Assembly: GCA_029865125.1 (NCBI GenBank)
Contig: JAOUHN010000001.1
Location: forward strand, 1,360-65,359
Direction: 5' to 3'
DNA: 64,000 nt
Source: Candidatus Moraniibacteriota bacterium
GTDB taxonomy: Bacteria; Patescibacteriota; Minisyncoccia; Moranbacterales; UBA9337
Below, one piece after another: positions 6,504 through 64,000 of the stretch. Position 1 is the first letter of the stretch, and every line of letters begins with the position of its first letter. The position numbers and the translations under genes were made by a program. Below the pieces are notes generated by a model. The model saw only the letters and a program-made list of their open reading frames with translations, made no database searches and was not told the DNA's origin.

Positions 6504-6509
6504 ATATTT

Positions 6510-7526
6510 TTATATTCCTAATCCAATTTCTTCAATTTGATCAAGCCCTAATTCATTCATTTTTCCTGAAATCTCATTTTGAAAATCTGCAAATAACGCT
6601 AACATATTTTGAGCTTTTCCCAGAGAAACTATGGATCCGATAGGGTCATCAGGATTAATTTCAACATTTTCTTTGAGTGTGATCGCTTTGTTCAAAAGTT
6701 TCAATCCTTTTTTGTGCATTTCAACCATATCTTCTGGAACCTCGATTTTTTCAAATTGTGTCAAAAAGTTATCACCTTTTTCAGCCATATTTTCAAAATA
6801 TTCCATTTTTGAAGAAACTCCTTCCAAACTTGAAAGAGATGAAATTTTTGAAATAATTTCATCCTCAAAACCACCCAAATCATCTGGTTTTGTTATTTTA
6901 TATGGAGAATTCTCCACTGCTAGATAATATACTGCTGTGACATATTTTTCATTATCTTCCTTTTTTTTTCTGGCTTGTTTTTCTTCGCTAAACTCAGAAT
7001 AATTTTGTTTTTTTATTTTTATTGAAGATTCATCAATTTCTTCAATTTCATCAAGATCATCAAAAGCGCTGTTTTCAGATAGGGCCCCCTCAACAAGCAT
7101 GTTTATATCATCTATCGTGGCTATATCTTCTTCATTATTATTTGAATCAGAAATCATTTCTGAAATCTTTTTTGCAATTTCCTGAGTGAGATTTGCATCG
7201 TTTTCATCTTCTTTGTTTTCCTCGTTACCATCCACAGAAGTCTTTGCTTTTTCTTGAACAATTTTGTCTCCTGGCGCCGGCTTTAGCGGATCATATCCAC
7301 TTTGAACCTCTGTTCCATCGGAATATCCATCACCATCGCTATCTTTATTATTAGGATCCGTTCCATACACAACTTCCTCATCATTTGAAAGACCGTCTTG
7401 ATCGAAATCAGCAAAAACACCCTCCGATGATGAAGAGTTGCTTTGCGCATATACAGAAAAACCAATTCCAAAGAAAAATAATACTAAAAAAATTCCAATA
7501 GATTTTTTTGTTTTCGATAAATTCAT
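6510..7526 (-). CDS. Secreted acidic protein with thrombospondin-type-3-like Ca-binding Asp repeats
   Basis: Signal peptide, then DQDGLSNDEE and DSDGDGYSDGTE repeats, then a long acidic region. Separated by 6 bp from the upstream ORF on the same strand, so a likely operon. Confidence 0.6.
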   Translation of the reverse strand: MNLSKTKKSIGIFLVLFFFGIGFSVYAQSNSSSSEGVFADFDQDGLSNDEEVVYGTDPNNKDSDGDGYSDGTEVQSGYDPLKPAPGDKIVQEKAKTSVDGNEENKEDENDANLTQEIAKKISEMISDSNNNEEDIATIDDINMLVEGALSENSAFDDLDEIEEIDESSIKIKKQNYSEFSEEKQARKKKEDNEKYVTAVYYLAVENSPYKITKPDDLGGFEDEIISKISSLSSLEGVSSKMEYFENMAEKGDNFLTQFEKIEVPEDMVEMHKKGLKLLNKAITLKENVEINPDDPIGSIVSLGKAQNMLALFADFQNEISGKMNELGLDQIEEIGLGI

Positions 7527-9427: not shown

Positions 9428-9512
9428 ACATGTCCCATGCCCTATGTTTCGTGTTCCATGCTATATGTTCTATGCTCCATGTTATGTGCTGCATGCTCCA
9501 TGCTCTACGCTG
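9428..9512. repeat. Heptanucleotide (ATGYYYY)n array, about 12 units
   Basis: ATGTCCC ATGCCCT ATGTTTC GTGTTCC ATGCTAT ATGTTCT ATGCTCC ATGTTAT GTGCTGC ATGCTCC ATGCTCT. Confidence 0.8.
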
Positions 9513-9515
9513 CCT

Positions 9516-10337
9516 CTATTCATTCAGTGCTTCAAAAGCGTCTCTTAGCTTCTTCCAATTTTCAACCGAAAGCTCTTGAGCTCTTGTATAAATATTAAAC
9601 CCATTGTTTTCCAAAATATTTTGAACCACCACCTTTTCCAGATGAAGTCCATTGGCCAAATTGTTTAATAATGTTTTTCTCCTCGCAGAAAATCCGGCTT
9701 TGACAATTCTAAAAAATGCTTTGTTTTTTTCTTTGTCACGAACATCTTCTGAATTTTTCGGAATAATTCTCACAACAGCGCTGTCCACTTCCGGAACCGG
9801 CTCAAAACATTCTCTGTCCACTTCAATCAAAAACTCAACGTCTGCATAATATTGAACAGACACAGCCAAAATACTCATCTGTCCAGACTCCGCCAAAATC
9901 CTGTTGGCCACTTCAAGTTGCATCATGAGAATCATTTCCTTGGGTGGATTGTCTGATTCTAAAAACAAACGGATTATTTTTGAAGTGATGTAATATGGGA
10001 TATTGGCCACTACCTTGTATCCGTCATATTGATAGGGTGCCATCATGTCAGTAAGATTGATTGTCAAAATGTCACCGTGAACAACCTCAAAGCCTTCTTC
10101 ATCCTGAAACTTTTTCTCCAAACCTTCCACAAGATTTTTGTCCAGTTCAACTGCCACAACCTTCCTCACATATCTCATCAACTCCTGAGACAAAACTCCC
10201 TGCCCTGGACCGATTTCAAGCACAACATCATCCGGATCAAGATTGGCAGAAACAGCAATTCTTTCCACCACACTATTATCCTTCAAAAAATTCTGCCCCA
10301 ATGATTTTTTAGGCTTCGCCTTAAATTCTTTTTCCAT
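9516..10337 (-). CDS. rsmA: 16S rRNA (adenine1518/1519-N6)-dimethyltransferase RsmA/KsgA
   Basis: LGQNFLKD near the N-terminus, SAM-binding VLEIGPGQGVLSQEL, and the DxxxxNIPY motif. 273 aa. Confidence 0.9.
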   Translation of the reverse strand: MEKEFKAKPKKSLGQNFLKDNSVVERIAVSANLDPDDVVLEIGPGQGVLSQELMRYVRKVVAVELDKNLVEGLEKKFQDEEGFEVVHGDILTINLTDMMAPYQYDGYKVVANIPYYITSKIIRLFLESDNPPKEMILMMQLEVANRILAESGQMSILAVSVQYYADVEFLIEVDRECFEPVPEVDSAVVRIIPKNSEDVRDKEKNKAFFRIVKAGFSARRKTLLNNLANGLHLEKVVVQNILENNGFNIYTRAQELSVENWKKLRDAFEALNE

Positions 10338-53978: not shown

Positions 53979-54248
53979 ATGGCGCTTACAAAAAAGCAAA
54001 AAGACACAGTAACAAAGGGAGTAAAGAGACACGAAACTGACAGTGGTTCTCCAGAATATCAAATTGCCCTTTTTACTGAGAAGATCAAAAAGCTAACTAC
54101 TCACCTAAAGAAGAACAAGAAAGATTTTCATTCAAGACGTGGTCTTTTGAAAATGGTTTCAAAGAGAAAGAAGCTTATGGGATATCTTCAAAAAACTGAT
54201 GAGAAATCATACAAGAAACTTATCAAAAAACTTGAACTAAAAGGATAA
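53979..54248 (+). CDS. rpsO: 30S ribosomal protein S15
   Basis: MALTKKQK...LTTHLKKNKKDFHSRRGLLKMVSKRKKLMGYL; 90 aa from the internal Met. Confidence 0.93.
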   Translation: MALTKKQKDTVTKGVKRHETDSGSPEYQIALFTEKIKKLTTHLKKNKKDFHSRRGLLKMVSKRKKLMGYLQKTDEKSYKKLIKKLELKG

Positions 54249-54317
54249 AACTTCAAATATACTTTAAAGCGAATGATTTTCATTCGCTTTAATTGTCTAG
54301 AGACCAACCTGCCGCCA

Positions 54318-54368
54318 TTTGTCATCCTGAGCTTGATTCAGGATCCCTAAGTCCTAGCACACACTCGG
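54318..54368. repeat. REP-like dispersed element, copy D
   Basis: TTTGTCATCCTGAGCTTGATTCAGGATCCCTAAGTCCTAGCACACACTCGG. Confidence 0.85.
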
Positions 54369-54470
54369 CACCATACTGAGATTCTGAAACAAATTCAGAA
54401 TGACACAAAGATGCACGGTTCACACAAAAAACAAATTTCACTAAATAAACTTAGTATTTAATAAAACAAT

Positions 54471-54968
54471 ATGTCAAAATTCAAAGAACAACGCGTAGGA
54501 ATGCTAGTGGACATTCAAAATCTCTACTACAGCGCTCGCGTAATCTACAAAAAGAAAGTAAACTTCAAAAACATTCTCACAGAAGGAGTTTCTGACAGAA
54601 AGCTGATCAGAGCAATCGCCTATGGAATCAAAACACTCGAAGGATCCGAAGAAAAATTCCTTGAAGCAGTTGAAAAACATGGATTTGAAATCAAAACCAA
54701 AGATCTCCAAATTTTTCCGGGGGGAGCAAAAAAAGGAGATTGGGATGTTGGGATCGCAGTAGATGCAATCAAAATGTCCAAGAGTCTCGATGTTATCATC
54801 TTGGTCTCTGGAGATGGAGACTTCATTCCACTCGTTGAATATATCCAAAACACAACGGGTTGTCGTGTGGAAGTAATCGCTTTCAAAGAATCAGGAAGCT
54901 CCAAGCTCATCGAAGTGGCAGATGACTTCATAGACCTGTCATCCAACAAGAAAAAGTTCTTGATTTAA
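54471..54968 (+). CDS. NYN-domain (LabA-like, PIN-related) protein
   Basis: MLVDIQNLYYS...GDWDVGIAVDA...ILVSGDGDF; 165 aa. Confidence 0.8.
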   Translation: MSKFKEQRVGMLVDIQNLYYSARVIYKKKVNFKNILTEGVSDRKLIRAIAYGIKTLEGSEEKFLEAVEKHGFEIKTKDLQIFPGGAKKGDWDVGIAVDAIKMSKSLDVIILVSGDGDFIPLVEYIQNTTGCRVEVIAFKESGSSKLIEVADDFIDLSSNKKKFLI

Positions 54969-54975
54969 ACTATCA

Positions 54976-55010
54976 ACAAAAAACTACTCATCAAATGAGT
55001 AGTTTTTTGT
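54976..55010. terminator. Bidirectional terminator (ACTACTCAT-CAA-ATGAGTAGT)
   Basis: A6 upstream and T6 downstream. Serves both the NYN gene and tRNA-Leu. Confidence 0.7.
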
Positions 55011-55016
55011 TATTCT

Positions 55017-55100
55017 GGTGCCGCGGGAGAGACTCGAACTCTCACGGGTTGCCCCACCAGTTCCTAAGACTGGCGTGTATACCAATTTCACCACCGCGGC
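55017..55100 (-). tRNA. tRNA-Leu (anticodon UAG), class II, CCA encoded
   Basis: Reverse strand: GCCGCGG-TG-GTGA-AATTGGTAT-ACAC-G-CCAGT-CTTAGGA-ACTGG-TGGGGCAACCCGT-GAGAG-TTCGAGT-CTCTC-CCGCGGC-A-CCA. Confidence 0.85.
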
Positions 55101-55401
55101 GTAATAAAAACCTGGGTTCACAGGTTTTTTCAAGTACCCTACGAGTGTAATACAATTTTTCAAACTTTGCAAGAGCCCCAAATTACGAATGTATGAATGA
55201 AAGAATATAAGCATTTAGGCATAATCCTAAATTCTCAACTTCCTATCCCAATACCTGGGCAATCCGCATCACTTCTTCCTTGAGCGCCCCATCATTCTCA
55301 TATTCCCCGCTTCAAACTTCTTTTTAATCAAAAAGCAAGCGCTTGTCCTACAAAAACAAACACTTGCTATATATCACCTCCCCGAAATAAAGAACTTTCC
55401 C

Positions 55402-56241
55402 TTAATGCTTAATCGACTCAAGCCCAACGCTTTTGACCCAAAAGCCGGTCTCGTCGTCTCGTTCGATGGAAACCGTCGAACCGACATTTTCCATCGTGGC
55501 CTTCCATTTTCGAAGATCGGCATACTCCCGATCATCAAAATGGACTGGCCGACCTTCCCTTTGGGCCAGCAATGCCCGACACATCATGTCGGCTGCCAAC
55601 CACTCGGCCTGTTCCTCGAGAGTGGCCTTGGAGTACTCAATGCTCCAATGCCAGCCCTCTTGGACAAACCCAGTCAAAAGGGTCGAGGGGTCGACCTGAC
55701 CCGGGAAAAATAGCTGGGTCCTGCCAGCAAATTTTCCCGAAGTCGCTGTGACGGAAATTCCGCGATAAACGCGGATTTCGTCAAAGCCCTCAGTTAGTTC
55801 CGGCAGATTATCGGCCAACTGACTGGCCATCTGCCGAATAGTATCCTCCGGGAGGGTCGCTTTCTTGCCCTGAGCCGCCCGCTTTTGCTGGCGCTCAAGG
55901 CAAACCTCCAGTGGTGTGTCCATCAGGACCGCCACCACTCGGGAAGCATGTGGCTTTCCAGCCAGGATGTTGTCCCGACGCCATTTCCGAATAATATTCG
56001 TGGCATCAAAAACGACATCCCGGCCAGCCTTGAGACTGCCGGCAATTTCTTGCCTAGCAATCTCGAAAGCCCTGTCAGACCCAACTCGGTGCTTCACCCG
56101 AATATCATCCGGGCAAATCACCGTCGCCTCGGTTGTTTCGGCAATCCATTTCGCATGAAACGACTTGCCAGAACCGGGGATGCCGACCATGAACCAAAAG
56201 GTTGGCCCTGTCATTTCTGGCATCAATCCTCCTTTTTCCAA
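55402..56241 (-). CDS. P-loop polynucleotide-kinase-like (AAA_33/zeta-like) kinase with C-terminal domain of unknown function; high GC
   Basis: Walker A MVGIPGSGKS and an FDATN motif; 279 aa. Roughly 55% GC against roughly 33% for the window. Confidence 0.65.
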   Translation of the reverse strand: MEKGGLMPEMTGPTFWFMVGIPGSGKSFHAKWIAETTEATVICPDDIRVKHRVGSDRAFEIARQEIAGSLKAGRDVVFDATNIIRKWRRDNILAGKPHASRVVAVLMDTPLEVCLERQQKRAAQGKKATLPEDTIRQMASQLADNLPELTEGFDEIRVYRGISVTATSGKFAGRTQLFFPGQVDPSTLLTGFVQEGWHWSIEYSKATLEEQAEWLAADMMCRALLAQREGRPVHFDDREYADLRKWKATMENVGSTVSIERDDETGFWVKSVGLESIKH

Positions 56242-56430
56242 TAAACCCGGAATTTGAATTTTTATTCCAAAGAACTCCTCTCATCTTTGAAACACCAATT
56301 TATTGGTATCTCAATAATGAGTTTCAAACGCCGCGCCGTTTGAACTGATTTTAACCCTTTTTTAAATTAAAGAACTATTTACCACACGCGGGTGACACAC
56401 AAATCAGTCCTCAGACCATATTGTTCCGTC

Positions 56431-56922
56431 TCAGAAAACATGGTCGCCTCCTTCGCCATTAAAGATTCGTATTGATGAGCGAAACTCTTCTTCATCCCGC
56501 TCCTCCTCATCATCAACTGAAGGACCGACTTGCAGTCGATCCCATTCGTAGTCGGTCACGGGAATCACTGGGCGAGCATCCCAAGTGACTCTTTCTGGGG
56601 GATAGACTTCAGTCCAGATAAATTCATCATCTGGGCTGAAATCAACGAATACCACCTTATAGGTGGTTCCGTCGAATGCTACAGCCTCCACGGTTTTTCT
56701 TTTTGCCTTCACCTCCTTCCGATATAGTATATCTATATCGTCCCGATACTGTTCATGATACTCCGCCAAGAGCATTCCCTCGATAAAGGACCTCTTGACA
56801 TCTTCGTCTTCTACGGTGTAGAGGACGTGAACGGTAGCAACCGCTCTCTCATGAAAAGCACACGGGTCAAAGTCCAGCCCAAGATCGAGCATCTTCGCTA
56901 CCTGCGCAGCTATTTTGCTCAT
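56431..56922 (-). CDS. Hypothetical acidic protein, high GC
   Basis: 163 aa with no motif; acidic C-terminal stretch DDEEERDEEEF. Confidence 0.5.
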   Translation of the reverse strand: MSKIAAQVAKMLDLGLDFDPCAFHERAVATVHVLYTVEDEDVKRSFIEGMLLAEYHEQYRDDIDILYRKEVKAKRKTVEAVAFDGTTYKVVFVDFSPDDEFIWTEVYPPERVTWDARPVIPVTDYEWDRLQVGPSVDDEEERDEEEFRSSIRIFNGEGGDHVF

Positions 56923-56949
56923 AAACCAGGGTTATTCTCAGTTTTAGAA

Positions 56950-57155
56950 ACAAATGAAGCGAGCATCTTTTTCATAACCATTCCCTCCTCAGAAAATTTT
57001 GCCCAAAAACGGGCGTTAAACTTTGCTCAAAACGAGCCTTTCTGTTACGAACCTAAAACAACTTTTTTGAAATTATCTTGGGTTCGTAGCAGAAGCCTGA
57101 AAGAAAATATATGATTTTCTCGGATAAATATTTTTTGATTCAAAGAACTTTTCAA
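56950..57155. repeat. Roughly 175-bp direct repeat, copy 1 (contains a conserved hairpin)
   Basis: About 85% identical to 61736-61910; the 3' 50 nt are identical (AAATATATGATTTTCTCGGATAAATATTTTTTGATTCAAAGAACTTTTC). Confidence 0.9.
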
Positions 57156-57228
57156 CTATAAGCTTTCAATAAATTCAAAAGCTTAATAATCGGCAGGAGA
57201 ACGGATCGCTGTCCATTCTCCTGCTTTC

Positions 57229-58107
57229 CTACATTCTTCTTGCTATAGCGGCCTGCCTTACCGCTAGGCTAGAGGAGGAAGAGGTCACATTGGCGAGCTC
57301 AAAGACTCGCTTCACGCACCTCTCCGCCTCCTCACGAGACAAATGCGGTCCTAGTCCAATTCCTTCGCGCAAATACCACTCGCGCGGGGATAGAAGACTG
57401 AAACCTGCATCTGCTACTTTTTCCCGCCAACCATCCTCGGGTAGAATTTCTTCGTTTTCTTTCCCGATATAATGTCGGCGTGAGGCCTCCGGCATCCATG
57501 AACTCATCCGAGCATCGCAATACCGGAGACCTTTGACCGAGATCTCGCTATATCCGAGCTTGTGTAACTCGGACAGGAATCCGAGATCGGAAACTCCTGC
57601 TATATACGGATGCGCTATTGGCAAGGCGCGCACTCCATACTCTTTTGCCAATGCGAGAGTTTCGAGGTGCTGTTGCACCGAAACTCTTTCGATTGGTAAA
57701 TGGTTGCCCGTAATCCCGACTACTAAAAACAGATTGTGATATTGGGCGAGCTGTGCCATTTGCCAACGGCTTGCCGGCCACTTTGACACTAAAGTGACCA
57801 GTTTTGTCCGGGACGCCACCTGCTCAAGAAAATATTGCAAGTAGTAGTCGATTTTTGGCCAGAGAGGATCAGTGATGGCAGTAAATCCGACAAAATCCCC
57901 CTCAAGCACTTCCCAAGGAAAGTTGAAAAAGCGACGTTCAACTTCATTGTTTTCAATGATCCAAGGTGGCACATTGATATATGTGCATGCCTTGTTGATA
58001 CCCGCCACTGGATTTTGATTCCAGACTTCACGGCGGGTATCATGCTCGGTGATGAAACAGTATTTACAAGCCACTGGGCAAGCCGGATTTCCAGCAATGA
58101 ATTTCAT
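57229..58107 (-). CDS. SplB-like radical SAM protein, high GC
   Basis: N-terminal AGNPACPVACKYCFIT (Cx3CxYC[F]); 292 aa. Overlaps the upstream ORF by 4 nt. Confidence 0.7.
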   Translation of the reverse strand: MKFIAGNPACPVACKYCFITEHDTRREVWNQNPVAGINKACTYINVPPWIIENNEVERRFFNFPWEVLEGDFVGFTAITDPLWPKIDYYLQYFLEQVASRTKLVTLVSKWPASRWQMAQLAQYHNLFLVVGITGNHLPIERVSVQQHLETLALAKEYGVRALPIAHPYIAGVSDLGFLSELHKLGYSEISVKGLRYCDARMSSWMPEASRRHYIGKENEEILPEDGWREKVADAGFSLLSPREWYLREGIGLGPHLSREEAERCVKRVFELANVTSSSSSLAVRQAAIARRM

Positions 58108-59261
58108 TTTCTGTTTCCTTTGAAAAAATTTAATAATTCAGTCGGCATACACCCAACTGAACCTTTGTTTGGATACAACTCGCTCACGCAGTACTTGCAC
58201 CCAAAACAATTATCCAGCTGACGCGCCCAGACAAACCAAGAGTTTATGCAATGAATTGACATCTTCGTCAGTTCTTGCATTTTCGTGACATGCCCGACAT
58301 CCTTTCTTGCTCCGTCCACCATACCCGGCTTCACACAAAGCGTTCCACCAAGCACGAACCGACAAAAAGTCAAATCACCAAGGGTTTCGGCATTGTGAAC
58401 CATTACTCGCGGTTGCCTTTGTACGAAACAAGTCGTGCAACACGACTGACATTCTAACCTATTGTCAGTCTGAAACCCACAGACTTGCCTTGAGGCTGGT
58501 TGGTATTCAATATCATATCCAACCTGCCTGAGCCAGATCAAAACTTCCTGATCAGGCTCAACCGGACCACATGTTCCACGTAAGGGACATCCGATCGCCT
58601 CACAGCGCACTAATTGGGGTGAGCCCCAGTATGGATTGAGTGGCTTCTCCCGTCCAGTGAGATATGAAACAGCACAGTTCACTCTCGTGAACAACCGGAT
58701 TCCGTTCTCTTTCGCAACCCGCAAAATCTGATCAAATCCAGTCATCTGTTTCACACGCAAAACCCAGTCTATCGCATTGTCAGGGTTAACCGCCTCTACG
58801 AGAGAAGCGTCTCCGCGAAATCCTGAGACACAGGCCACTTTGCATCCCACTGCCTGAAGGCGAGTGAAAATGCGATTGATTACCTCCTCACTAGTGTTGT
58901 AAGGAGGAATGAGCGGCCGCACTGCTGCAAAACATTTAACTCCTGCTTCCCGAAGATTACGGAGTGTCTCATACCGATGATCGTGTCCGACTTTTTCAAA
59001 TCCGTCAGGAAGCTCACTAATGGAAACCATCACGACAAGCCCAGAAAGATTCAAAAAAGCTAACTCGTTTGCGCGAGATGGACCAATTGATCCTTTGGTG
59101 ATAACACTCACTGGGCCAGTGTGACCCGCCTCAGCCAATAACCGCAACTTCCTCATAGTGTCCTCCCACTGCAAAGTGGGGTCACCATAGTAACAATTTA
59201 TAGATACCGGCATAGACAGCAAAGCCCTTATTATCTTTTTCATAACGCCCTCCTGCGTCAT
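58104..59261 (-). CDS. Cys-rich protein of unknown function (multiple CxxC/CxxCxxC clusters), high GC
   Basis: 385 aa, translationally coupled to the radical SAM gene. C-terminal NCFGCKYC and CQSCCTTC clusters. Confidence 0.55.
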   Translation of the reverse strand: MTQEGVMKKIIRALLSMPVSINCYYGDPTLQWEDTMRKLRLLAEAGHTGPVSVITKGSIGPSRANELAFLNLSGLVVMVSISELPDGFEKVGHDHRYETLRNLREAGVKCFAAVRPLIPPYNTSEEVINRIFTRLQAVGCKVACVSGFRGDASLVEAVNPDNAIDWVLRVKQMTGFDQILRVAKENGIRLFTRVNCAVSYLTGREKPLNPYWGSPQLVRCEAIGCPLRGTCGPVEPDQEVLIWLRQVGYDIEYQPASRQVCGFQTDNRLECQSCCTTCFVQRQPRVMVHNAETLGDLTFCRFVLGGTLCVKPGMVDGARKDVGHVTKMQELTKMSIHCINSWFVWARQLDNCFGCKYCVSELYPNKGSVGCMPTELLNFFKGNRK

Positions 59262-59360
59262 TATTTATATCAAAGAACCTCTAACATTAAATTCTTGCGC
59301 ACAATTGCGCTTTTGGAAAAACCAATTTTGCGTCCCCAAAAGCGCAATCAAGCGCTTATT

Positions 59361-60737
59361 TTATCTTTTTGTTATCTCCTTGATAGCCAAGATGAACCTC
59401 TCAACATCCTCATTGGTATTGCACAAAGAAAATGAAGCTCTGATAAATCCCGGCACCGCGCTTTTCTTTTCGTTTTTAATATTCTCAATAATTTCTTTTT
59501 CATCTTCAATCCTTAGCAACTTTCGAATCACATTATAAACACAGAAACTTCCATATCTTACACCAATACCGAATTCACTGTTCAATCTCTCTGCAACTTT
59601 TTTTGAATTCATACCTTTGATATTAAAAGGCAATACCGTATTTAAATGCTTTTCTGATACATATAACTCAATCTTTGGATTTGATTTTAAATAATCAAAA
59701 GCTTTCTTGGTTAGTTTTTTTTCATAACTTTCAATATTTTCAATCCCAATATTTCTCAATTCTTCTAATGCATACATCATTGACACCGCTCCAACCGCAT
59801 TGGGCGTCCCAGGATCATGAGCTAGCTGATTCTTATATCTCAGAAATTCACCTTCTTTAGTTATGTATGGCAAATTTCCACCACCGATCTCATAAGAAAT
59901 AAATTTGTCAAAGAAATTTTTCGGTCCAATCAAGAATCCTCCGCCATAAGGAGCATAGAACTTATGACCCGATGCCGCCAAAAAGTCGATTCCCATTTTC
60001 TGCATATCTATTTTATGGTGTTGAATGAATTGACAAGCGTCCACAATAAAATACGCCCCGTGTTTATGAACAATTTCTCCAATTTTTTTAATATCAGGAC
60101 AATAACCGGTTGCATTTGATGAGGCGGTCAACACAAAAGCTTTGATTTTATTAGTACTCAAAATATTTTCAATACTTTTCAAATCAAATTCAAACTCATT
60201 ATTAACATCATATTGCACAACCTGCTTTCTTCCTTCTTTTTGAATTTTTTCACTAACATTATCCATTTCAGATAAATCAAACTGCTTCTTGCCTATTTTT
60301 TTAATCCCCTCAGCTTTGATCCAAGGAAGCCACGAGGAAGAATGTTCTATTCCAGAAACAGCTACTTTTCCCTCCAAAAATGAAAAATAATGTGCAGCCG
60401 CATTCATTGCACCTGTTGTATTTCCCGTAAAAACAACGTAATCGCTCTTAGGAGCATTAACAAATTTTTTTATAACATCCCTACTTTTTTCATAAATATC
60501 TGTAGAAATTTTTGATTTTATTCCTGCACCTCTATGAACAGACCCGTAACTAGATAAATATTCATCAACTTTTTTCTGAACAGCTCTAAAGGGAGGTGTT
60601 GTAGCAGCATTATCTAAATTAACATAACGAACAACCCCAAGTTTACTTGTTTCAACTTGGTAATTATGAATTTTACTCAAAAATAATTTCTTTGGATTAA
60701 TTTTCATATAAAAAAATATTAATAATTTTCTCTTCAT
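59361..60737 (-). CDS. Class V aminotransferase / cysteine-desulfurase-like PLP enzyme (AT-rich, native composition)
   Basis: PLP-Lys motif ASGHKFYAPYGGGFL, an N-terminal NLDNAATTP, and a C-terminal GSFC loop. 458 aa. Confidence 0.75.
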   Translation of the reverse strand: MKRKLLIFFYMKINPKKLFLSKIHNYQVETSKLGVVRYVNLDNAATTPPFRAVQKKVDEYLSSYGSVHRGAGIKSKISTDIYEKSRDVIKKFVNAPKSDYVVFTGNTTGAMNAAAHYFSFLEGKVAVSGIEHSSSWLPWIKAEGIKKIGKKQFDLSEMDNVSEKIQKEGRKQVVQYDVNNEFEFDLKSIENILSTNKIKAFVLTASSNATGYCPDIKKIGEIVHKHGAYFIVDACQFIQHHKIDMQKMGIDFLAASGHKFYAPYGGGFLIGPKNFFDKFISYEIGGGNLPYITKEGEFLRYKNQLAHDPGTPNAVGAVSMMYALEELRNIGIENIESYEKKLTKKAFDYLKSNPKIELYVSEKHLNTVLPFNIKGMNSKKVAERLNSEFGIGVRYGSFCVYNVIRKLLRIEDEKEIIENIKNEKKSAVPGFIRASFSLCNTNEDVERFILAIKEITKR

Positions 60738-60895
60738 CTCAAATCTTATTCGTATATTTGTAAATTTGTGAAAAATTTGTAATTCATATACTAAATAAGA
60801 TCTGAGAAAAGGGATAGAGCAGGCAAGCGCTGTTGCGTGCTCTATCTGTTGTGAGAGAGTTTAGTTTAGGCACTCTCTCGGAAGCCTTGAAATAT

Positions 60896-61732
60896 TTATC
60901 CTTTTACAACTACCCCGGCAAACCCACGAGTGGGATTGCCATAGGCATTTCCGATCCGATTTGGGAGTGAGTTTCCCCACCCCATAAACCGATTGACGAT
61001 CTCGGGCGTCGTATGTCCGCCGAGAACAATTTTCTTGTTCCCGGTTGGGTTCCGGTCGCGATCGACATCGTCGATCATGGCAATGTAGGCCTCGCCCGTT
61101 ACCAATGCCGCCTCAGGCAGTTCATCGATTAAACCGGCCTCGCGAAGATCGCGGACACCGTCCACGACCTTTGCCTCCTGAAGCTTGTCTTTGGCCTTGG
61201 CGATAAACTCCCGAATTTTTTCTTCATCTGCCTTTTGGGCAGTTCGAGGGTTAGTGGCATAAAATGCCGCCTTCCCCTTGATGCGAAACTCTAAAAACTC
61301 CTCCGGGTCAATCCCAGAGCAACGCCCAGCATAGGCATCCGCTGGGCAATGGTCACCGGCAGCAACCAATTCCAGCTGATGAGTACGCTCCACACCAAGG
61401 ATGGCGCAAAGCTGCCCCAAGGAGGAAGCGTCCCAGTACCGGTCGGCCCCGAGACCATAACCGAAATCGCCAGGATTGTGGTGGTCGCAAATGCCAACCA
61501 CCGACATGGAGCCGGCACAGTTCGGGTTGACCTCGAATATAATTACCTGTTGAACAAGAGCGAAATCACCCTCGTCAACAACGTAACCATCTGCCTGGTA
61601 AGCATTGCCCCCGTGGACTTTCGTCCCGGAGACAGTTGCTGTGGCCAGCACACATCCCGCTTCACGGGCCACATTGCGTGCTGCTTGCTCTTCGTTATCT
61701 TGGCCACCGAAAACTACCATTGTATTTTTCAT
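60896..61732 (-). CDS. Hypothetical protein, high GC
   Basis: 278 aa with roughly 57% GC. No recognised motif (contains CDHHNPGD). Confidence 0.5.
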   Translation of the reverse strand: MKNTMVVFGGQDNEEQAARNVAREAGCVLATATVSGTKVHGGNAYQADGYVVDEGDFALVQQVIIFEVNPNCAGSMSVVGICDHHNPGDFGYGLGADRYWDASSLGQLCAILGVERTHQLELVAAGDHCPADAYAGRCSGIDPEEFLEFRIKGKAAFYATNPRTAQKADEEKIREFIAKAKDKLQEAKVVDGVRDLREAGLIDELPEAALVTGEAYIAMIDDVDRDRNPTGNKKIVLGGHTTPEIVNRFMGWGNSLPNRIGNAYGNPTRGFAGVVVKG

Positions 61733-61735
61733 CGC

Positions 61736-61910
61736 TTTTCCTCCTCGGGAAATATTTGCCCAAAAGCGGGCGTTAATTTTGCTCGAAAATGAGCTCTTCT
61801 ACTACGAGCCCAAAACAACTTTTTTAAAATTATCTTGAGTTCGTAGTAGAAGCTTGAAGGAAAATATATGATTTTCTCGGATAAATATTTTTTGATTCAA
61901 AGAACTTTTC
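61736..61910. repeat. Roughly 175-bp direct repeat, copy 2
   Basis: See copy 1. The internal hairpin shows compensatory changes between copies. Confidence 0.9.
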
Positions 61911-61969
61911 TCTCTGGTCAAAATAACCAAGAGATTCTTGAGTCCAACCACAAGGATTGTTCCCAAAAA

Positions 61970-62000
61970 TAAAAAGCTTTCCAACCGGAAAGCTTTTTGC
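61970..62000. terminator. Bidirectional terminator (AAGCTTTCC-AACC-GGAAAGCTT)
   Basis: A 9-bp perfect stem with A and T runs on either side. Confidence 0.65.
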
Positions 62001-62792
62001 ATGACTCTTCAAGAGAAACTAAACACGACTAAAGTCCTCGAGAAAAGTCTTGCAAGAAACCTTCCTATTCGCCTGCATTGAAGCGAAGCTTTGTCGTGTT
62101 TTAGTTGTTATCAAAATACTGTTATAATAAACTCACTATTCTTCTTCCGAAGAATGGATGATCCGCCTATCTTTTTAGATCCTGTATTAAACAGGCTCCA
62201 TAGCCGGGACCAGTCCATTCATCGCAATGGATGAATAAATTGTAGGGTTACCGGGTTTCGGAATAGCCCGAGATCAATTGAACTTTGTCAATCACTATCT
62301 CAAACTGAGACACCACCCGGATTTTTATGAACTATCCTCTGCATTGAGAGGAGGTGATCTTTTAATATCACTGGATTGAAACTTATTATTCTAAGATTCA
62401 ACACCGCTAATATCAATGTGACTGCCTGTTGCCATAACTGTTTTTCTCATCTTGACTCATTACTATACCATAGCTTTACAAAATTGTCAATAGTTTGTGA
62501 ATGCATTTGACTATCTATCCTACTTTGGCTTAATACGGCCCTTTGTTCAGGAAGCATTCTGTCACAATGCATTCACAAATATTTGACACTATGTTTTCCA
62601 CTTAATTATCAATGTTCTTTTGTTCTCTTAATCACCCAGCCCTTACTGCCTTTTCTCATCTTGACTAGTCAGTATAGCATGCTATCACAATATTGTCAAT
62701 ACCCTGTGACTGCTTTTTCCAACATTTCAGTATTATGGCTTAAATTAGGCTTATATCTCATTTTATTTTGCTTTAAAAATATTCACGATTGT

Positions 62793-62821
62793 TTGACAAT
62801 AGGCAAAAACAAGAGTATAAT
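62793..62821 (+). promoter_or_regulatory. Consensus sigma70-type promoter (TTGACA-17-TATAAT) oriented toward the TrmB-like gene
   Basis: TTGACA at 62793-62798, a 17-bp spacer, and TATAAT at 62816-62821. Confidence 0.6.
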
Positions 62822-62928
62822 AGAAGCATAACTTATTTTCTTTCTATATAAGCGCCAAGTAAGACTCCCCATTAAAAAGCACTGTCAAAGAGTCACGTTT
62901 ATATAAAAATAGCCAAAAAAACAAAATT

Positions 62929-63717
62929 ATGTATGAAAAAATCCTGTCCGTTGCCGGACTTTCCCCAAAAGAAGCCGAGATATATGAAATTCTCCTAAAT
63001 ATCGGACAAGCCGAAGCAAGTGAGATATTCAAGCAAACTACCTATAAAAGAGGTTTATTATACAAGATTTTAGAGCAACTTATCGAAAAAGGGCTAATTG
63101 TTAAAATAGAAAAACCCCGCAAACCGGCCGTTTTCAGGGTAGAGCATCCCAACAAAATAACCGAGATGCTTGATTTGCAAGCACAAAAGGTAACTTACTA
63201 CAAAAAAAGTATTGAGGATTTGATGCCGCAGCTGATTTCCAACTATAATTTAGCCTTTCATAAGCCTGGAATCAGGTTTTTTGAAGGAAAAGAAGGCGTG
63301 AGAAGGGTTCTTGATGATACCCTCACCGCCAAAGAAACTATTTATACCTATGTTGACATGGAAGCCATTGTCGAACATATCAATGACATAAACAAGGCTT
63401 ATGTCAAAAAAAGAGAGAAATTGGACATCAAAAAAAAAGGAATCGTTCTAGACTCCCCTTTTACCCGAAAACTACTCAAGAATTATCATACTAGTGTCAC
63501 TGACACCAGATTCATGGACCACACTAAATATTCCTTCAGCTCTATAATGCAGATATATGACGACCGCGTTGCTTATATCTCCCTATCGGAAGATAGCTTC
63601 ACTTCAATCATCATCCAAGACAAAAACATTTATCAAATGCACAAACAAATCTTTGAATTCAACTGGCAAAATGCCAAAACCTATGAAGAGCTTACGCCTC
63701 TTTCTAAAGCGCAATAG
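62929..63717 (+). CDS. TrmB-family transcriptional regulator (N-terminal wHTH)
   Basis: MYEKILSVAGLSPKEAEIYEILLNIGQAEASEI...LLYKILEQLIEKGLIVKIE; 262 aa with a TrmB-like C-terminal domain. Confidence 0.75.
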   Translation: MYEKILSVAGLSPKEAEIYEILLNIGQAEASEIFKQTTYKRGLLYKILEQLIEKGLIVKIEKPRKPAVFRVEHPNKITEMLDLQAQKVTYYKKSIEDLMPQLISNYNLAFHKPGIRFFEGKEGVRRVLDDTLTAKETIYTYVDMEAIVEHINDINKAYVKKREKLDIKKKGIVLDSPFTRKLLKNYHTSVTDTRFMDHTKYSFSSIMQIYDDRVAYISLSEDSFTSIIIQDKNIYQMHKQIFEFNWQNAKTYEELTPLSKAQ

Positions 63718-63995
63718 ACACTCTTCTGGTCCTGGCTAAAAAAATATCTCGTGATCACAAAATGCTTCTTGTTCACCAACTCGTCAAGAAGCTTTCTTGT
63801 TTCATTTTCCCCAATGGGAAGAAACAGCACCATCCTGGAATCATCTTCGTTGTATGCATTCCCAAGATTATTTTGCATATGATATTCGGCAACATCTGCC
63901 TGAGACATCTTCTTGAAAAAATAATCCTTGCCCTGTCGTTCTTTTGCAAGACTAAATGTATATTCCCCCTCATACTCATATGCTCTAGTGGCCAC
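63681..63995 (-). CDS. Hypothetical protein (may extend beyond the window edge)
   Basis: ORF on the minus strand overlapping the 3' end of the TrmB gene. Low information. Confidence 0.3.
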   Translation of the reverse strand: MATRAYEYEGEYTFSLAKERQGKDYFFKKMSQADVAEYHMQNNLGNAYNEDDSRMVLFLPIGENETRKLLDELVNKKHFVITRYFFSQDQKSVYCALERGVSSS

Positions 63996-64000
63996 AAATC

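What the first reader, a model, noticed from the sequence alone, without database searches (positions are those of the whole stretch)
55100..61910. High-GC island next to tRNA-Leu carrying a kinase, SplB-like radical SAM, Cys-rich protein and desulfurase-like cassette
Seen in the sequence: genes at 55402-59261 and 60896-61732 are about 55% GC while the genome backbone is about 33%, and the segment abuts tRNA-Leu(UAG). All genes are on the minus strand. The order is Cys-rich 385-aa protein, then an SplB-like radical SAM (Cx3CxYCF) with a 4-nt overlap, then an acidic 163-aa protein, then a P-loop PNK-like kinase with an unknown C-terminal domain. Between them sits an AT-rich class V aminotransferase/cysteine-desulfurase-like gene and a 278-aa unknown. 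Inference: a horizontally acquired, co-transcribed module. The combination of radical SAM, nucleotide/polynucleotide kinase and a sulfur-mobilising PLP enzyme suggests nucleic-acid or nucleotide modification (for example a defence or RNA/DNA repair-modification system) rather than housekeeping. I cannot match it to a described system.
Basis: partly seen in the sequence, partly recalled or inferred. Interest (0 to 1): 0.85.

Follow-up and report, generated by a model that had tools for sequence, protein, structure and literature searches.

The report
Uncharacterised paired radical-SAM nucleotide-modification cassette
The GC-rich patch is real, but it is a patchwork at a conserved locus of a tiny Candidatus Moranbacteria genome. 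Its core is an undescribed pair of radical-SAM enzymes, always found together and shared between such bacteria and phages, that probably modifies a nucleotide with help from a sulfur-mobilising enzyme.

Summary
Five minus-strand genes are 47.6-54.3% GC against 38.1 ± 2.9% for 38 backbone genes, and the cysteine-desulfurase gene between them is 32.6%.

It is not a tRNA-integrated island. There is no att repeat and no integrase, and related loci have no adjacent tRNA-Leu.

The conserved core is a SufS-type desulfurase followed by two distantly related radical-SAM-fold proteins:
- A (385 aa) lacks the N-terminal CX3CX2C. It has 11 invariant Cys, including a C-terminal CxxCxYC.
- B (292 aa) has the canonical CX3CX2C.

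A and B are adjacent in 24 of 24 distinct loci with enough flank, in Patescibacteria and in phage contigs. Each of these loci carries either a desulfurase (15) or a cupin (9), and 8 carry an adenylate-kinase-type NMP kinase, which is fused to B in two protein clusters.

Identity patterns indicate that a GC-rich, phage-related A-B pair replaced the resident pair beside a native desulfurase gene.

The 278-aa protein (NrN-like DHH phosphodiesterase), the acidic protein and the Pnkp-like kinase are accessories seen only in this genome. A duplicated 186-nt leader precedes two of these genes.

The function is unknown. My best inference is a two-subunit radical-SAM enzyme that makes a modified, possibly thiolated, nucleotide.

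The parts
55016..55100 (-). tRNA-Leu(UAG). It is a neighbour, not an attachment site.
   Evidence: ARAGORN and Rfam tRNA at 58.5 bits. No repeat of the tRNA occurs in 54000-64000. Homologous loci lack an adjacent tRNA-Leu.
55334..55368 (-). Intrinsic-terminator-like hairpin (16 pairs plus a T run) downstream of the kinase gene.
55402..56241 (-). Two-domain kinase. The N-terminal domain is a Pnkp-like P-loop polynucleotide kinase (residues 14-156). The C-terminal domain (162-279) is unknown. GC is 54.3%. It is a genome-specific accessory. The public gene call starts at residue 7 (273 aa).
   Evidence: AAA_33 at 5e-20, bacter_Pnkp at 2e-12 and phrog_505 polynucleotide kinase. PDB 4gp6 Pnkp kinase domain at 1e-6. 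Each domain also occurs as a stand-alone protein, and the fusion is nearly unique. It is not found next to A-B elsewhere.
56431..56922 (-). Acidic 163-aa protein (pI 4.45, GC 48.4%) of unknown function. It is a genome-specific accessory.
   Evidence: No hit in Pfam, NCBIfam, PADLOC or PHROGs. No relative in any fetched locus or in IMG/VR. pI.
56968..57153 (-). Copy 1 of the 186-nt leader repeat, upstream of the acidic gene. It contains a GTTCTTTGAAT motif, a 57-nt hairpin, two small hairpins and a GAGGAGG Shine-Dalgarno sequence.
   Evidence: Direct repeat D1 at 83% ungapped and 87-88% by BLAST. Alignment, fold. No Rfam family even at E ≤ 10 and no hammerhead core.
57229..58107 (-). B: a canonical radical-SAM-fold enzyme (292 aa) with CX3CX2C at C10/C14/C17. 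GC is 49.4%.
58104..59261 (-). A: a divergent radical-SAM-fold protein (385 aa, 20 Cys). It has no N-terminal CX3CX2C. Invariant cysteines are C196; C220/C225/C231; C271/C274/C275/C278; and the C-terminal C352-x2-C355-x-Y-C358. GC is 47.6%. It overlaps B by 4 nt.
59361..60737 (-). SufS/CsdA-type PLP cysteine-desulfurase-like gene. GC is 32.6%, so it looks resident. It is the commonest partner of A-B. The public gene call is 448 aa.
   Evidence: Aminotran_5 at 4.7e-78 and sufS subfamily at 3e-72, below that model's cutoff. The PLP lysine (SGHK) and the cysteine in RxGxxC are conserved in two desulfurase classes linked to A-B. Linkage.
60896..61732 (-). 278-aa NrN-like DHH-motif phosphodiesterase candidate. 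GC is 54.2%. It is an accessory gene and not a conserved partner of A-B.
   Evidence: 114 homologues in Patescibacteria. Invariant D12, E14, D83-H84-H85, S103, Q107 and A124-A125. The profile against PDB hits NrN 9lq9 at E 0.19 with all these motifs aligned. The NrN active site is D85/H86/H87 (PMC10600005). 33 IMG/VR loci carry a relative, none linked to A/B.
61725..61910 (-). Copy 2 of the 186-nt leader repeat, upstream of the 278-aa gene.
   Evidence: Hairpin I2 at 61796-61852.
61971..61998 (-). Terminator-like hairpin (12 pairs plus a T run) just upstream of leader copy 2.
62442..62717 (-). Two 67-nt repeats, each carrying a near-consensus extended -10 promoter that points towards the island (TTGACA-17-TATAGT and TTGACA-17-TATACT). 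They lie in the 1.0-kb non-coding gap.
   Evidence: Repeat D2 and promoter scan. No ORF longer than 82 aa. No Rfam hit.
62929..63717 (+). Divergent TrmB-family regulator. One recurs beside A-B cassettes and beside variable gene arrays in other Patescibacteria.
   Evidence: PF01978 annotation on the identical contig. TrmB lies near the cassette in L003/L021, L007, L011, L020, L025, L026, L080, L084 and L094. It also lies near the 278-aa homologue in L017.

Best explanation
**What it is (largely shown).** A mosaic at a conserved chromosomal locus of a Candidatus Moranbacteria genome.
- Its conserved core is a three-gene cassette: a resident, low-GC SufS-type cysteine desulfurase, then two distantly paralogous radical-SAM-fold proteins, A and B.
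- A and B always occur together, in Patescibacteria and in phages.
- In this lineage the A-B pair is a GC-rich, phage-related version that replaced the resident pair next to the native desulfurase.
- Three unrelated GC-rich accessory genes were added: an NrN-like phosphodiesterase, an acidic protein and a Pnkp-like kinase fusion. A duplicated 186-nt leader precedes the phosphodiesterase and acidic genes.

**How it most likely works (inferred).**
- A and B form a two-subunit radical-SAM enzyme acting on a free nucleotide.
- B supplies a canonical SAM-cleaving [4Fe-4S] site.
- A supplies a second, possibly circularly permuted, cluster site (C-terminal CxxCxYC) plus up to two auxiliary clusters built from eight more invariant Cys.
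- The desulfurase delivers persulfide sulfur to build or re-build A's clusters, or as the sulfur that is inserted.
- In other versions an adenylate-kinase-type NMP kinase phosphorylates the substrate or the product.
- The product would be a modified, plausibly thiolated, nucleotide. Phages and these bacteria would use it either for nucleic-acid modification or as a small-molecule effector.
For: **Linkage**
- There are 45 distinct A loci. Of the 24 with enough flank, B is adjacent in 24, a desulfurase in 15, a cupin in 9 (never together with a desulfurase), an ADK-type kinase in 8 and the small protein X168 in 4 (details).
- Start and stop codons overlap or nearly abut here (4 nt) and in the phage contig.
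- Two desulfurase classes only 30-33% identical to each other sit on opposite sides of A-B. This indicates independent recruitment. Both keep the PLP lysine and the active-site cysteine.
- ADK is fused to B in P0143 and P0150.
- Complete sets occur: Amt5-A-ADK-B in L022 and Amt5-A-X168-ADK-B in L090/L091.

**Phage carriage**
- L013 carries both terminase subunits.
- L027/L034 are IMG/VR genomes of 177 and 112 kb.

**Folds and paralogy**
- A. B. Paralogy of A and B.
- A's invariant Cys set. Pfam score gain on permutation.

**Replacement of A-B**
- The bacterial desulfurases are 60-72% identical to one another, and the phage copy is the outgroup at 49-55%.
- A splits into a clade holding the window, L018, L003, L025 and the phage (55-70%) and a clade holding L022, L007 and L026. 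The two clades are 40-46% identical.
- The GC mosaic recurs in L018, L021, L068, L072 and L074.
Against: - No substrate, product or activity is known for any member of either family.
- Neither A nor B reaches Pfam's Radical_SAM gathering score.
- I could not inspect the model coordinates, so the position of A's C-terminal Cys triad relative to the barrel is untested. hhalign gave no score gain on permutation.
- The desulfurase may only serve Fe-S cluster assembly for a multi-cluster enzyme, which would imply no sulfur in the product.
- Nine of 24 loci carry a cupin and no desulfurase within 3.5 kb, so any locally encoded sulfur supply is dispensable.
- The kinase in this window is a polynucleotide-kinase type, not an NMP kinase, and is not a conserved partner.
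Confidence: 0.45

Rival explanations
1. A-B act on polymeric DNA or RNA rather than on free nucleotides. The precedents are spore photoproduct lyase and the SPL-like radical-SAM isomerase gp53 of phage M6. In M6, gp53 works next to a PLP enzyme (gp52) and a P-loop DNA kinase in thymidine hypermodification. Under this reading the Pnkp-like kinase in the window would prepare polynucleotide ends or phosphorylate a modified base.
For: - A matches the PA0069 and Rv2578c SplB-like models weakly. JGI labels several B homologues 'DNA repair photolyase'.
- M6 has the same gene trio: a PLP enzyme beside an SPL-like radical SAM enzyme, plus a kinase (PMC8989533).
- The window kinase is Pnkp-like, with a faint 5-hmdU DNA kinase hit at E 0.013.
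- The module is carried by phages.
Against: - The recurrent kinases, including those fused to B, are adenylate-kinase-type NMP kinases, which act on free nucleotides.
- No aGPT-Pplase, 5-hmdU synthesis or DNA transferase genes were seen in the neighbourhoods.
- There is no A or B homologue in 50,697 GenBank phage records, M6 included.
Confidence: 0.2
2. The cassette is a sulfur-insertion or Fe-S/cofactor pathway acting on a non-nucleotide substrate. Analogues are the two-subunit lipoyl synthase LipS1/LipS2, LipA, BioB and NifS-NifB. Phages would carry it as an auxiliary metabolic gene set.
For: - A dedicated cysteine desulfurase is tightly coupled to the pair.
- A has many invariant Cys, including a CX4CX5C spacing like LipA's auxiliary-cluster motif in clades 1 and 2 (the comparison with LipA rests on my own knowledge).
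- A two-radical-SAM lipoyl synthase exists (PMC10332631, listed; I did not read it).
- In the bacteria the flanking genes are housekeeping genes.
Against: - The NMP-kinase association and fusion are unexplained by this reading.
- The CX4CX5C spacing is not conserved. It is CX2CX5C in clade 3 and in some other sequences.
- No NCBIfam or Pfam hit to LipA, BioB, MiaB or NifB was found.
- No lipoate, biotin or nitrogenase context genes were seen.
- The cupin versions have no desulfurase within 3.5 kb.
Confidence: 0.12
3. The cassette is an antiviral or counter-defence effector pathway that makes a nucleotide analogue. The model is viperin/pVip working with a partner NMP kinase. Under this reading the whole TrmB-adjacent region would be a defence or anti-defence island.
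For: - Neighbours in mobile elements include Csx3 ring nucleases, AcrVA2-like proteins, Csf3 and an integrase.
- The window's accessory gene resembles NrN, which degrades the CRISPR signal SAM-AMP.
- An AbiEii toxin lies beside a homologue of the kinase's C-terminal domain and a TrmB gene.
- The flanking genes are variable, GC-rich and phage-like.
Against: - PADLOC finds only the desulfurase, as DndA/SspA-like, and no pVip.
- pVips need neither a second radical-SAM subunit nor a desulfurase.
- In several Patescibacteria the cassette has native GC and housekeeping neighbours (L007, L022, L080, L081, L087).
Confidence: 0.1
4. The GC mosaic is an assembly chimera, or the genes lie together by chance with no functional link.
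For: - The sequence is a metagenome-assembled genome.
- GC switches sharply at gene boundaries.
- An independent contig (L002) breaks exactly in the 186-nt repeats.
Against: - Independent assemblies (ENA 81.8 kb, a Logan contig from another run, and NCBI/JGI records) carry identical proteins across the GC junctions.
- The same order and the same mosaic occur in many unrelated samples.
- A-B adjacency is 24/24.
Confidence: 0.03

Closest known systems
Spore photoproduct lyase and the COG1533 'SplB-like' radical SAM families (PA0069, Rv2578c)
   Same: - B has CX3CxYC.
- Both A and B carry a (T/G)DPxxxW/P motif after strand 2. From my own knowledge this is typical of COG1533.
- A gives weak NCBIfam hits to PA0069 and Rv2578c.
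   Different: - Scores are far below the family cutoffs (18.7 against 360, 17.6 against 430).
- The proteins occur as an obligate pair. A lacks the N-terminal cluster motif and has about 190 extra Cys-rich residues.
- The pair is linked to a desulfurase or cupin and to an NMP kinase.
Phage M6 thymidine hypermodification cluster (5-HMUDK kinase, PLP enzyme gp52, SPL-like radical SAM isomerase gp53; PMC8989533)
   Same: The gene vocabulary is the same: a PLP enzyme directly beside an SPL-like radical SAM enzyme plus a P-loop kinase, carried by phages.
   Different: - No sequence homologue of A or B occurs in GenBank phages.
- The PLP enzyme here is a SufS-type desulfurase with its active-site cysteine, whereas M6 gp52 is described as a decarboxylase.
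- The linked kinases are NMP kinases.
- No aGPT-Pplase or 5-hmdU pathway genes were seen.
- There are two radical-SAM subunits instead of one.
Sulfur-inserting radical SAM enzymes fed by cysteine desulfurases (LipA, LipS1/LipS2, BioB, MiaB/RimO; NifS-NifB)
   Same: - A radical SAM enzyme is coupled to a desulfurase.
- A has many Cys, consistent with auxiliary clusters.
- A two-paralogue precedent exists (LipS1/LipS2).
   Different: - No family-level sequence match was found.
- The auxiliary-motif spacing is not conserved.
- Nucleotide kinase partners are present.
- Some versions carry a cupin and no adjacent desulfurase.
- A's cluster motif is C-terminal.
Viperin/pVip with a partner nucleotide kinase
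   Same: - A radical SAM enzyme is next to, or fused with, an NMP kinase.
- The module occurs on mobile elements.
   Different: - There is no PADLOC pVip hit.
- A second radical-SAM-fold subunit and a desulfurase or cupin are always present.
- Sequence identity is about 13%.
DndA/SspA cysteine desulfurases of DNA phosphorothioation systems
   Same: The desulfurase hits the PADLOC SspA (1.4e-31) and DndA (7.6e-31) models.
   Different: - No DndBCDE, SspBCD or restriction partners are present.
- The hit reflects the general NifS/SufS fold. The SufS model scores far higher (3e-72).
NrN, the SAM-AMP phosphodiesterase of CorA-type type III CRISPR systems (for the 278-aa accessory protein)
   Same: - The motif set and spacing are the same (GGxDxE, DHH at about residue 84, SxxxQ, AAxD).
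- The size is similar (260 against 278 aa).
   Different: - The match is only E 0.19 with a profile.
- No Cas10 or CorA is nearby.
- The family is widespread in high-GC phage contigs and in Patescibacteria.
- The substrate is unknown.

Membership tests
Radical SAM superfamily (protein B) | CX3CX2C cluster motif near the N-terminus | tested here: met
   C10, C14, Y16 and C17 are invariant in 33 sequences.
Radical SAM superfamily (protein B) | Partial (beta/alpha)6 barrel fold | tested here: met
   [not shown]
Radical SAM superfamily (protein B) | Pfam PF04055 gathering score (29.5 bits) | tested here: not met
   18.4 bits, E 0.0026.
Radical SAM superfamily (protein A) | CX3CX2C motif before strand-1/helix-1 at the N-terminus | tested here: not met
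   None of 36 aligned sequences has such a motif at the N-terminus. The only Cys triad of this kind is the C-terminal C352-x2-C355-x2-C358.
Radical SAM superfamily (protein A) | Radical-SAM barrel fold | tested here: met
   [not shown]
Radical SAM superfamily (protein A) | A three-Cys site placed to bind the SAM-cleaving cluster (here by circular permutation) | tested here: inconclusive
   - Moving residues 333-385 to the front raises the Pfam score from 20.9 to 28.7 bits and extends the match from profile position 34 to position 9. For P0049 the score rises from 12.2 to 17.7.
- hhalign shows no score gain.
- The model coordinates could not be inspected.
Spore photoproduct lyase / SplB | Family-level sequence model match, or a clearly closest structure | tested here: not met
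   [not shown]
PA0069 / Rv2578c radical SAM families | NCBIfam curated cutoff | tested here: not met
   A scores 18.7 against a cutoff of 360, and 17.6 against 430.
SufS/CsdA-type cysteine desulfurase | Aminotran_5 fold with the PLP lysine and an active-site cysteine loop | tested here: met
   PF00266 at 263 bits. SGHK and RxGxxC are conserved in 10 cassette-linked sequences of two classes.
SufS/CsdA-type cysteine desulfurase | NCBIfam sufS subfamily cutoff (475.1 bits) | tested here: not met
   243.7 bits, in two stretches with an insertion of about 27 residues.
Dnd / Ssp phosphorothioation systems | DndCDE or SspBCD partners beside the desulfurase | tested here: not met
   PADLOC hits only the desulfurase.
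Prokaryotic viperin (pVip) defence | Match to the pVip model | tested here: not met
   PADLOC gives no hit for A or B at E ≤ 0.1.
tRNA-integrated genomic island | Direct repeat of the tRNA end at the far boundary, plus an integrase | tested here: not met
   - No tRNA-derived repeat of 14 nt or more occurs in 54000-64000.
- No gene called on the identical contig from the tRNA side to beyond TrmB has a Pfam integrase hit.
- The island lies on the 5' side of the tRNA.
Bacterial Pnkp RNA-repair enzyme (kinase-phosphatase-ligase) | Full three-domain architecture | tested here: not met
   Only the kinase domain matches (TIGR04075 at 46 bits against a cutoff of 750; profile positions 12-157 of 851).
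DHH / NrN phosphodiesterases (278-aa protein) | DHH catalytic motifs in family-typical positions | tested here: inconclusive
   - The invariant D12/E14, D83-H84-H85, S103/Q107 and A124-A125 align with NrN 9lq9, but at E 0.19.
- Pfam DHH matches 1 of 35 members, at E 0.0024.
Self-cleaving ribozyme-punctuated gene array (hammerhead) | Hammerhead core in the repeated leaders of this window | tested here: not met
   No Rfam ribozyme hit at E ≤ 10 and no CUGANGA...GAAA core. The core is present in the related locus L068.

The most novel reading that the evidence does not exclude
- A is a circularly permuted, three-cluster radical SAM protein.
- It works as an obligate heterodimer with the canonical enzyme B.
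- Sulfur comes from the adjacent desulfurase.
- The product is a previously unknown sulfur-containing (or otherwise radical-modified) nucleotide.
- Phages and ultra-small Patescibacteria exchange this pathway and use it in nucleic-acid modification or in conflict with each other.
- A side possibility concerns the 186-nt leaders in this window. They occupy the positions where the nearest relative has hammerhead ribozymes, so they might be an undescribed RNA-processing element.
Probability: 0.15. Interest if true: 0.85.

Novelty: new variant of a known kind. Interest (0 to 1): 0.66.

Why it matters
- The pair is common. There are at least 90 (A) and at least 205 (B) protein clusters at 90% identity, in several Patescibacteria lineages (MAGs labelled Moranbacteria, Paceibacterota, Saccharibacteria and Nomurabacteria), in cyanobacterial mobile elements and in phage genomes up to 177 kb. 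No database names either family.
- If A-B make a modified nucleotide, this would be a new radical-SAM chemistry for nucleotide or nucleic-acid modification. It would also add a new item to phage-host conflict in an uncultured part of the tree.
- A would be an unusual radical SAM architecture, with its cluster motif at the C-terminus.
- The locus is also a clean example of in-place replacement of two genes of an operon by a foreign version, visible as a GC mosaic.
- The neighbourhood is a variable gene array with repeated leaders beside a TrmB regulator. In one relative the array is punctuated by hammerhead ribozymes, which makes it a tractable place to study how such arrays work.

Tried and rejected
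1. **tRNA-Leu as an integration site.** Rejected: no repeat, no integrase, and the island is on the wrong side of the tRNA.
2. **Known defence systems.** PADLOC finds only a DndA/SspA-like desulfurase.
3. **PDB relatives by sequence.** The A and B profiles gave nothing meaningful.
4. **GenBank phages.** No A or B homologue. BFVD has no close structural match for B, all TM-scores below 0.5.
5. **Permutation test by hhalign.** No score gain. The Pfam re-scan gave a modest gain.
6. **The leader repeat elsewhere.**
   - Not found in any fetched locus.
   - An exact 23-mer is not in the JGI metagenome contigs.
   - No Rfam family.
   - GTTCTTTGAA occurs 4 times in the window against 0.84 expected, which is only weakly enriched.
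7. **Accessory genes in viral contigs.** Neither the acidic protein nor the kinase has a relative there.
8. **Variable GC-rich neighbours in other loci** (330, 202, 355, 195 and 306 aa). No Pfam domain.
9. **Epsilon/zeta-like toxin-antitoxin reading of the acidic protein plus kinase.** Considered because of a Zeta_toxin P-loop hit (E 2e-4, 21.2 bits, below cutoff). Not pursued: the genes are 189 nt apart with a hairpin between them, and the best structural relative by sequence is Pnkp.
10. **Integron-like cassette array.** Considered because of the repeated leaders. No integrase was found, and attC sites were not tested.
11. **AFDB fold search.** The library was unavailable.
12. **Literature searches.** No description of the cassette was found.

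Full report

The composition claim is right in direction but overstated.
- The window outside the region is 37.5% GC. The 38 backbone ORFs average 38.1 ± 2.9% GC (maximum 43.1%) and 34.3 ± 5.7% GC3.
- GC of the five GC-rich genes:
  - kinase, 54.3%
  - 278-aa gene, 54.2%
  - B, 49.4%
  - acidic gene, 48.4%
  - A, 47.6%
- All five exceed every backbone gene (z = 3.3-5.6). GC3 is 47-59%, so the difference is also present at synonymous sites.
- The class-V aminotransferase gene is 32.6% GC (GC3 26.6%), and the spacers are 35-38% GC.
- The contig is a Candidatus Moranbacteria MAG.
- An 81.8-kb ENA contig and an independent Logan contig carry identical proteins across the GC junctions. The mosaic is therefore not an assembly artefact.

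**2. What the individual genes are**

*Kinase (279 aa).*
- Residues 14-156 form a Pnkp-type P-loop kinase. Hits are AAA_33 at 5e-20, bacter_Pnkp at 2e-12 (kinase part only), the PHROG polynucleotide kinase, and the C. thermocellum Pnkp kinase domain at 1e-6.
- Residues 162-279 are a separate domain. It also exists as stand-alone proteins of 110-140 aa and has no Pfam match. The fusion is almost unique.

*Acidic 163-aa protein.* It has no detectable relative in the family libraries, the fetched loci or the IMG/VR viral contigs.

*B (292 aa).*
- It has an invariant CX3CxYC and a confident AF2 model (pLDDT 95).
- It is a radical-SAM-fold enzyme but is not close to any solved family.

*A (385 aa).*
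- It is a distant paralogue of B (hhalign 95%, E 2e-8).
- It starts at the equivalent of B's residue ~70 and has no N-terminal cluster motif.
- It has 11 invariant Cys: C196; C220/C225/C231; C271/C274/C275/C278; and the C-terminal C352-x2-C355-x-Y-C358. In the model the last triad follows a predicted strand and precedes a helix.
- Moving the last 53 residues to the front raises the Pfam Radical_SAM score from 20.9 to 28.7 bits and extends the match to the cluster-motif positions. A second family member rises from 12.2 to 17.7 bits. hhalign does not reward the move.
- A circular permutation is therefore a reasonable hypothesis but is not shown.

*Aminotransferase.* It is SufS/CsdA-like (Aminotran_5 at 5e-78, sufS at 3e-72) and has the PLP lysine and the active-site cysteine.

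*278-aa protein.*
- It has 114 homologues in Patescibacteria and 33 loci in IMG/VR, mostly in phage contigs of 48-75% GC.
- Its invariant residues line up with the DHH-family phosphodiesterase NrN (PDB 9lq9), including DHH at 83-85 against NrN's D85/H86/H87. The match is only E 0.19.

**3. What is conserved around them**

I fetched neighbourhoods by exact-protein look-ups and by pattern scans of genomes, viral contigs and metagenomes. This gave 45 distinct A loci after dereplication at 95%. The counts below are for the 24 loci with at least 1.5 kb upstream and 2.6 kb downstream of A.

| Partner within 3.5 kb of A | Loci (of 24) |
|---|---|
| B | 24 |
| Cysteine-desulfurase-like gene | 15 |
| Small cupin (never together with a desulfurase) | 9 |
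| Adenylate-kinase-type NMP kinase | 8 |
| Small protein X168 | 4 |

- B is immediately downstream of A or separated from it only by a small ORF and/or a kinase. In one locus (L092) it lies directly upstream.
- The desulfurase comes in two classes only 30-33% identical to each other. One sits upstream of A and the other downstream of B. Both keep the catalytic residues. I read this as independent recruitment.
- The NMP kinase is fused to B in two protein clusters.
- Complete sets exist: Amt5-A-ADK-B in a Paceibacterota MAG (L022) and Amt5-A-X168-ADK-B (L090/L091).
- Carriers include:
  - several Patescibacteria lineages (MAGs labelled Moranbacteria, Paceibacterota, Saccharibacteria and Nomurabacteria);
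  - a cyanobacterial mobile element with an integrase, Csx3 and an AcrVA2-like gene (L009);
  - a 145-kb phage contig with both terminase subunits (L013);
  - IMG/VR genomes of 74-177 kb (L027, L028, L034).
- By contrast, the window's kinase, acidic protein and 278-aa protein were not found next to A-B in any other locus.

**4. History of the locus**

- The bacterial desulfurases are 60-72% identical to one another, and the phage copy is the outgroup at 49-55%.
- A splits differently. The window groups with L018, L003, L025 and the 177-kb, 58% GC phage at 55-70%. L022, L007 and L026 form a second clade that is 40-46% identical to the first.
- In L022, B groups with the first clade although A belongs to the second.
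- The loci with first-clade A tend to show the mosaic: L018, L021, L068, L072 and L074 have desulfurase 32-38% GC, A 51-63% and B 48-61%. Several loci with second-clade A are uniform in GC (L007, L022, L080, L081, L087), but three (L083, L084, L086) also have A and B at 53-61% GC beside a 43-44% GC desulfurase gene.
- The simplest reading is an old chromosomal Amt5-A-B operon in which A-B, and sometimes B alone, were replaced in place by a GC-rich, phage-related version.
- The window and L018 both have rpsO and an NYN-domain gene near the cassette, which fits long residence at this locus.
- tRNA-Leu is incidental. No repeat of it exists in the region, no gene called on the identical contig around the island has a Pfam integrase hit, and other loci lack it.

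**5. Regulatory architecture**

- A 186-nt sequence is present twice, at 56968-57153 and 61725-61910 (83% identical ungapped, 87-88% by BLAST). One copy lies just upstream of the acidic gene and the other upstream of the 278-aa gene.
- Each copy follows a hairpin. Each contains a GTTCTTTGAAT motif, a 57-nt hairpin with at least one compensatory change between the copies (my reading of the two sequences), two small hairpins and a GAGGAGG Shine-Dalgarno sequence.
- This suggests two units under the same control: [NrN-like, desulfurase, A, B] and [acidic protein, kinase].
- Between the island and the divergent TrmB-family regulator lies a 1.0-kb gap with no ORF longer than 82 aa. It holds two 67-nt repeats, each with a near-consensus extended -10 promoter facing the island, and a strong terminator at 61971-61998.
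- TrmB genes recur beside the cassette in at least nine other loci.

**6. A related locus punctuated by ribozymes**

- In L068, the closest relative (A 82% identical), the unit [318-aa ORF, desulfurase, A, B] is bounded by copies of a genome-specific repeat. The small ORFs after it are separated by further copies.
- Each of the six copies holds a type III hammerhead ribozyme on the gene strand (Rfam E 5.5e-8 to 3.6e-3). Stems I and II co-vary between copies.
- The window's leaders occupy the equivalent positions but contain no hammerhead core and no other Rfam family.
- Another Moranbacteria locus (L017) has a TrmB gene, a 1.4-kb gap and then an array of small ORFs with four or more repeated leaders. 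One of those ORFs is a 278-aa homologue.
- The TrmB-adjacent region therefore looks like a variable gene array with repeated leaders.

**7. Mechanism**

*Shown.*
- A and B are an obligately linked pair of radical-SAM-fold paralogues.
- Only B has the canonical site.
- A has enough invariant Cys for three clusters.
- The pair recruits a catalytically intact cysteine desulfurase or a cupin, and often an NMP kinase.

*Inferred.*
- The kinase linkage and fusion point to a free nucleotide as substrate or product.
- The desulfurase points to sulfur delivery, either to maintain A's clusters or as the inserted atom.
- I therefore favour a two-subunit radical-SAM nucleotide-modifying enzyme, possibly a thiolating one, at confidence 0.45.

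*Rivals.*
- Action on DNA or RNA polymers, as in phage M6's PLP-gp52 / SPL-like-gp53 / kinase cluster (PMC8989533): 0.2.
- A non-nucleotide sulfur-insertion or cofactor pathway: 0.12.
- A pVip-like effector pathway: 0.1.
- Chance or artefact: 0.03.

**8. Novelty**

- No Pfam, NCBIfam, PADLOC or PHROG model names A or B. No solved structure is close, and no GenBank phage carries them.
- The literature searches found no description of the cassette.
- It belongs to a known superfamily. It is a new family pair in a new conserved gene context, so I rate it a new variant of a known kind.
- I score interest at 0.66. The cassette is widespread, structurally unusual and experimentally tractable, but its chemistry remains inferred.

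Noticed in passing
L068 1953-2007, 7666-7720, 8807-8861, 10264-10318, 10924-10978, 12026-12080 (+): Six type III hammerhead ribozymes (Rfam RF00008, E 5.5e-8 to 3.6e-3, just under the gathering score) lie in repeated intergenic units of the closest related locus. They bracket the [ORF, desulfurase, A, B] unit and separate the small ORFs that follow. Stems I and II co-vary between copies. No canonical hammerhead occurs in the other ~110 fetched loci.
   Followed up: partly
window 61911-62928: This 1.0-kb gap between the island and TrmB has no ORF longer than 82 aa. It holds two 67-nt repeats (62442-62508, 62651-62717), each with a near-consensus extended -10 promoter on the minus strand, an inverted repeat (62485-62507 / 62566-62588) and a strong terminator at 61998-61971. 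A non-coding transcript of about 490-700 nt is possible. No Rfam family matches.
   Followed up: partly
window 60896-61732; L035-L067: The 278-aa family shares its motifs with NrN, the SAM-AMP-degrading DHH phosphodiesterase of type III CRISPR systems. It occurs in 33 IMG/VR contigs, mostly 48-75% GC, and is unlinked to A/B there. It might be a phage-borne signal-degrading enzyme.
   Followed up: partly
L017 4900-14500: A Moranbacteria locus has a TrmB gene, a 1.4-kb gap and then about 12 small unknown ORFs on one strand, including a homologue of the 278-aa protein. Spacers of 140-490 nt carry families of 87-219-nt repeats, several with a GTTCTTTGAAAAAG motif like the window's leaders. There is one weak partial hammerhead hit (E 0.015 at 9497-9539).
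   Followed up: partly
24 distinct A loci: A cysteine desulfurase and a ~155-175-aa cupin are mutually exclusive partners of A-B (15 and 9 of 24 loci, never both). The cupin, and the commoner class of desulfurase, sit directly upstream of A. No explanation was found.
   Followed up: no
L013 5562-7451: An IS605 OrfB/TnpB-like gene (5878-7167) sits inside the module of a phage contig. It splits the homologue of the 158-aa gene of L009 into ORFs of 70 aa and 85 aa.
   Followed up: no
L020 2296-2369: A tRNA with anticodon UUA, which would read the UAA stop codon, scores 70 bits in Rfam. It lies about 3.4 kb upstream of the A-B cassette in a Saccharibacteria MAG contig.
   Followed up: no
L022 12392-12512: A LOOT RNA (RF03000, 73.6 bits, above the gathering score) lies about 4.5 kb downstream of the cassette in a Paceibacterota MAG.
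   Followed up: no
Context of P0330 (no DNA available): A stand-alone homologue of the kinase's C-terminal domain lies directly after a CTP_transf_like nucleotidyltransferase gene. It is near an AbiEii toxin gene and another TrmB regulator. This hints that the domain partners with nucleotide-handling enzymes in TrmB-adjacent variable regions.
   Followed up: no
L002 (Logan contig, 4766 bp): An independent short-read contig starts and ends inside the two 186-nt leader copies, sharing a 30-nt identical stretch. I read this as a de Bruijn graph break at the repeat, not as evidence of a circular element.
   Followed up: yes
L022 compared with the other loci: In L022, A belongs to the low-GC clade, but B groups with the GC-rich, phage-related clade, and an ADK gene lies between them. 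This suggests recombination inside the module.
   Followed up: partly
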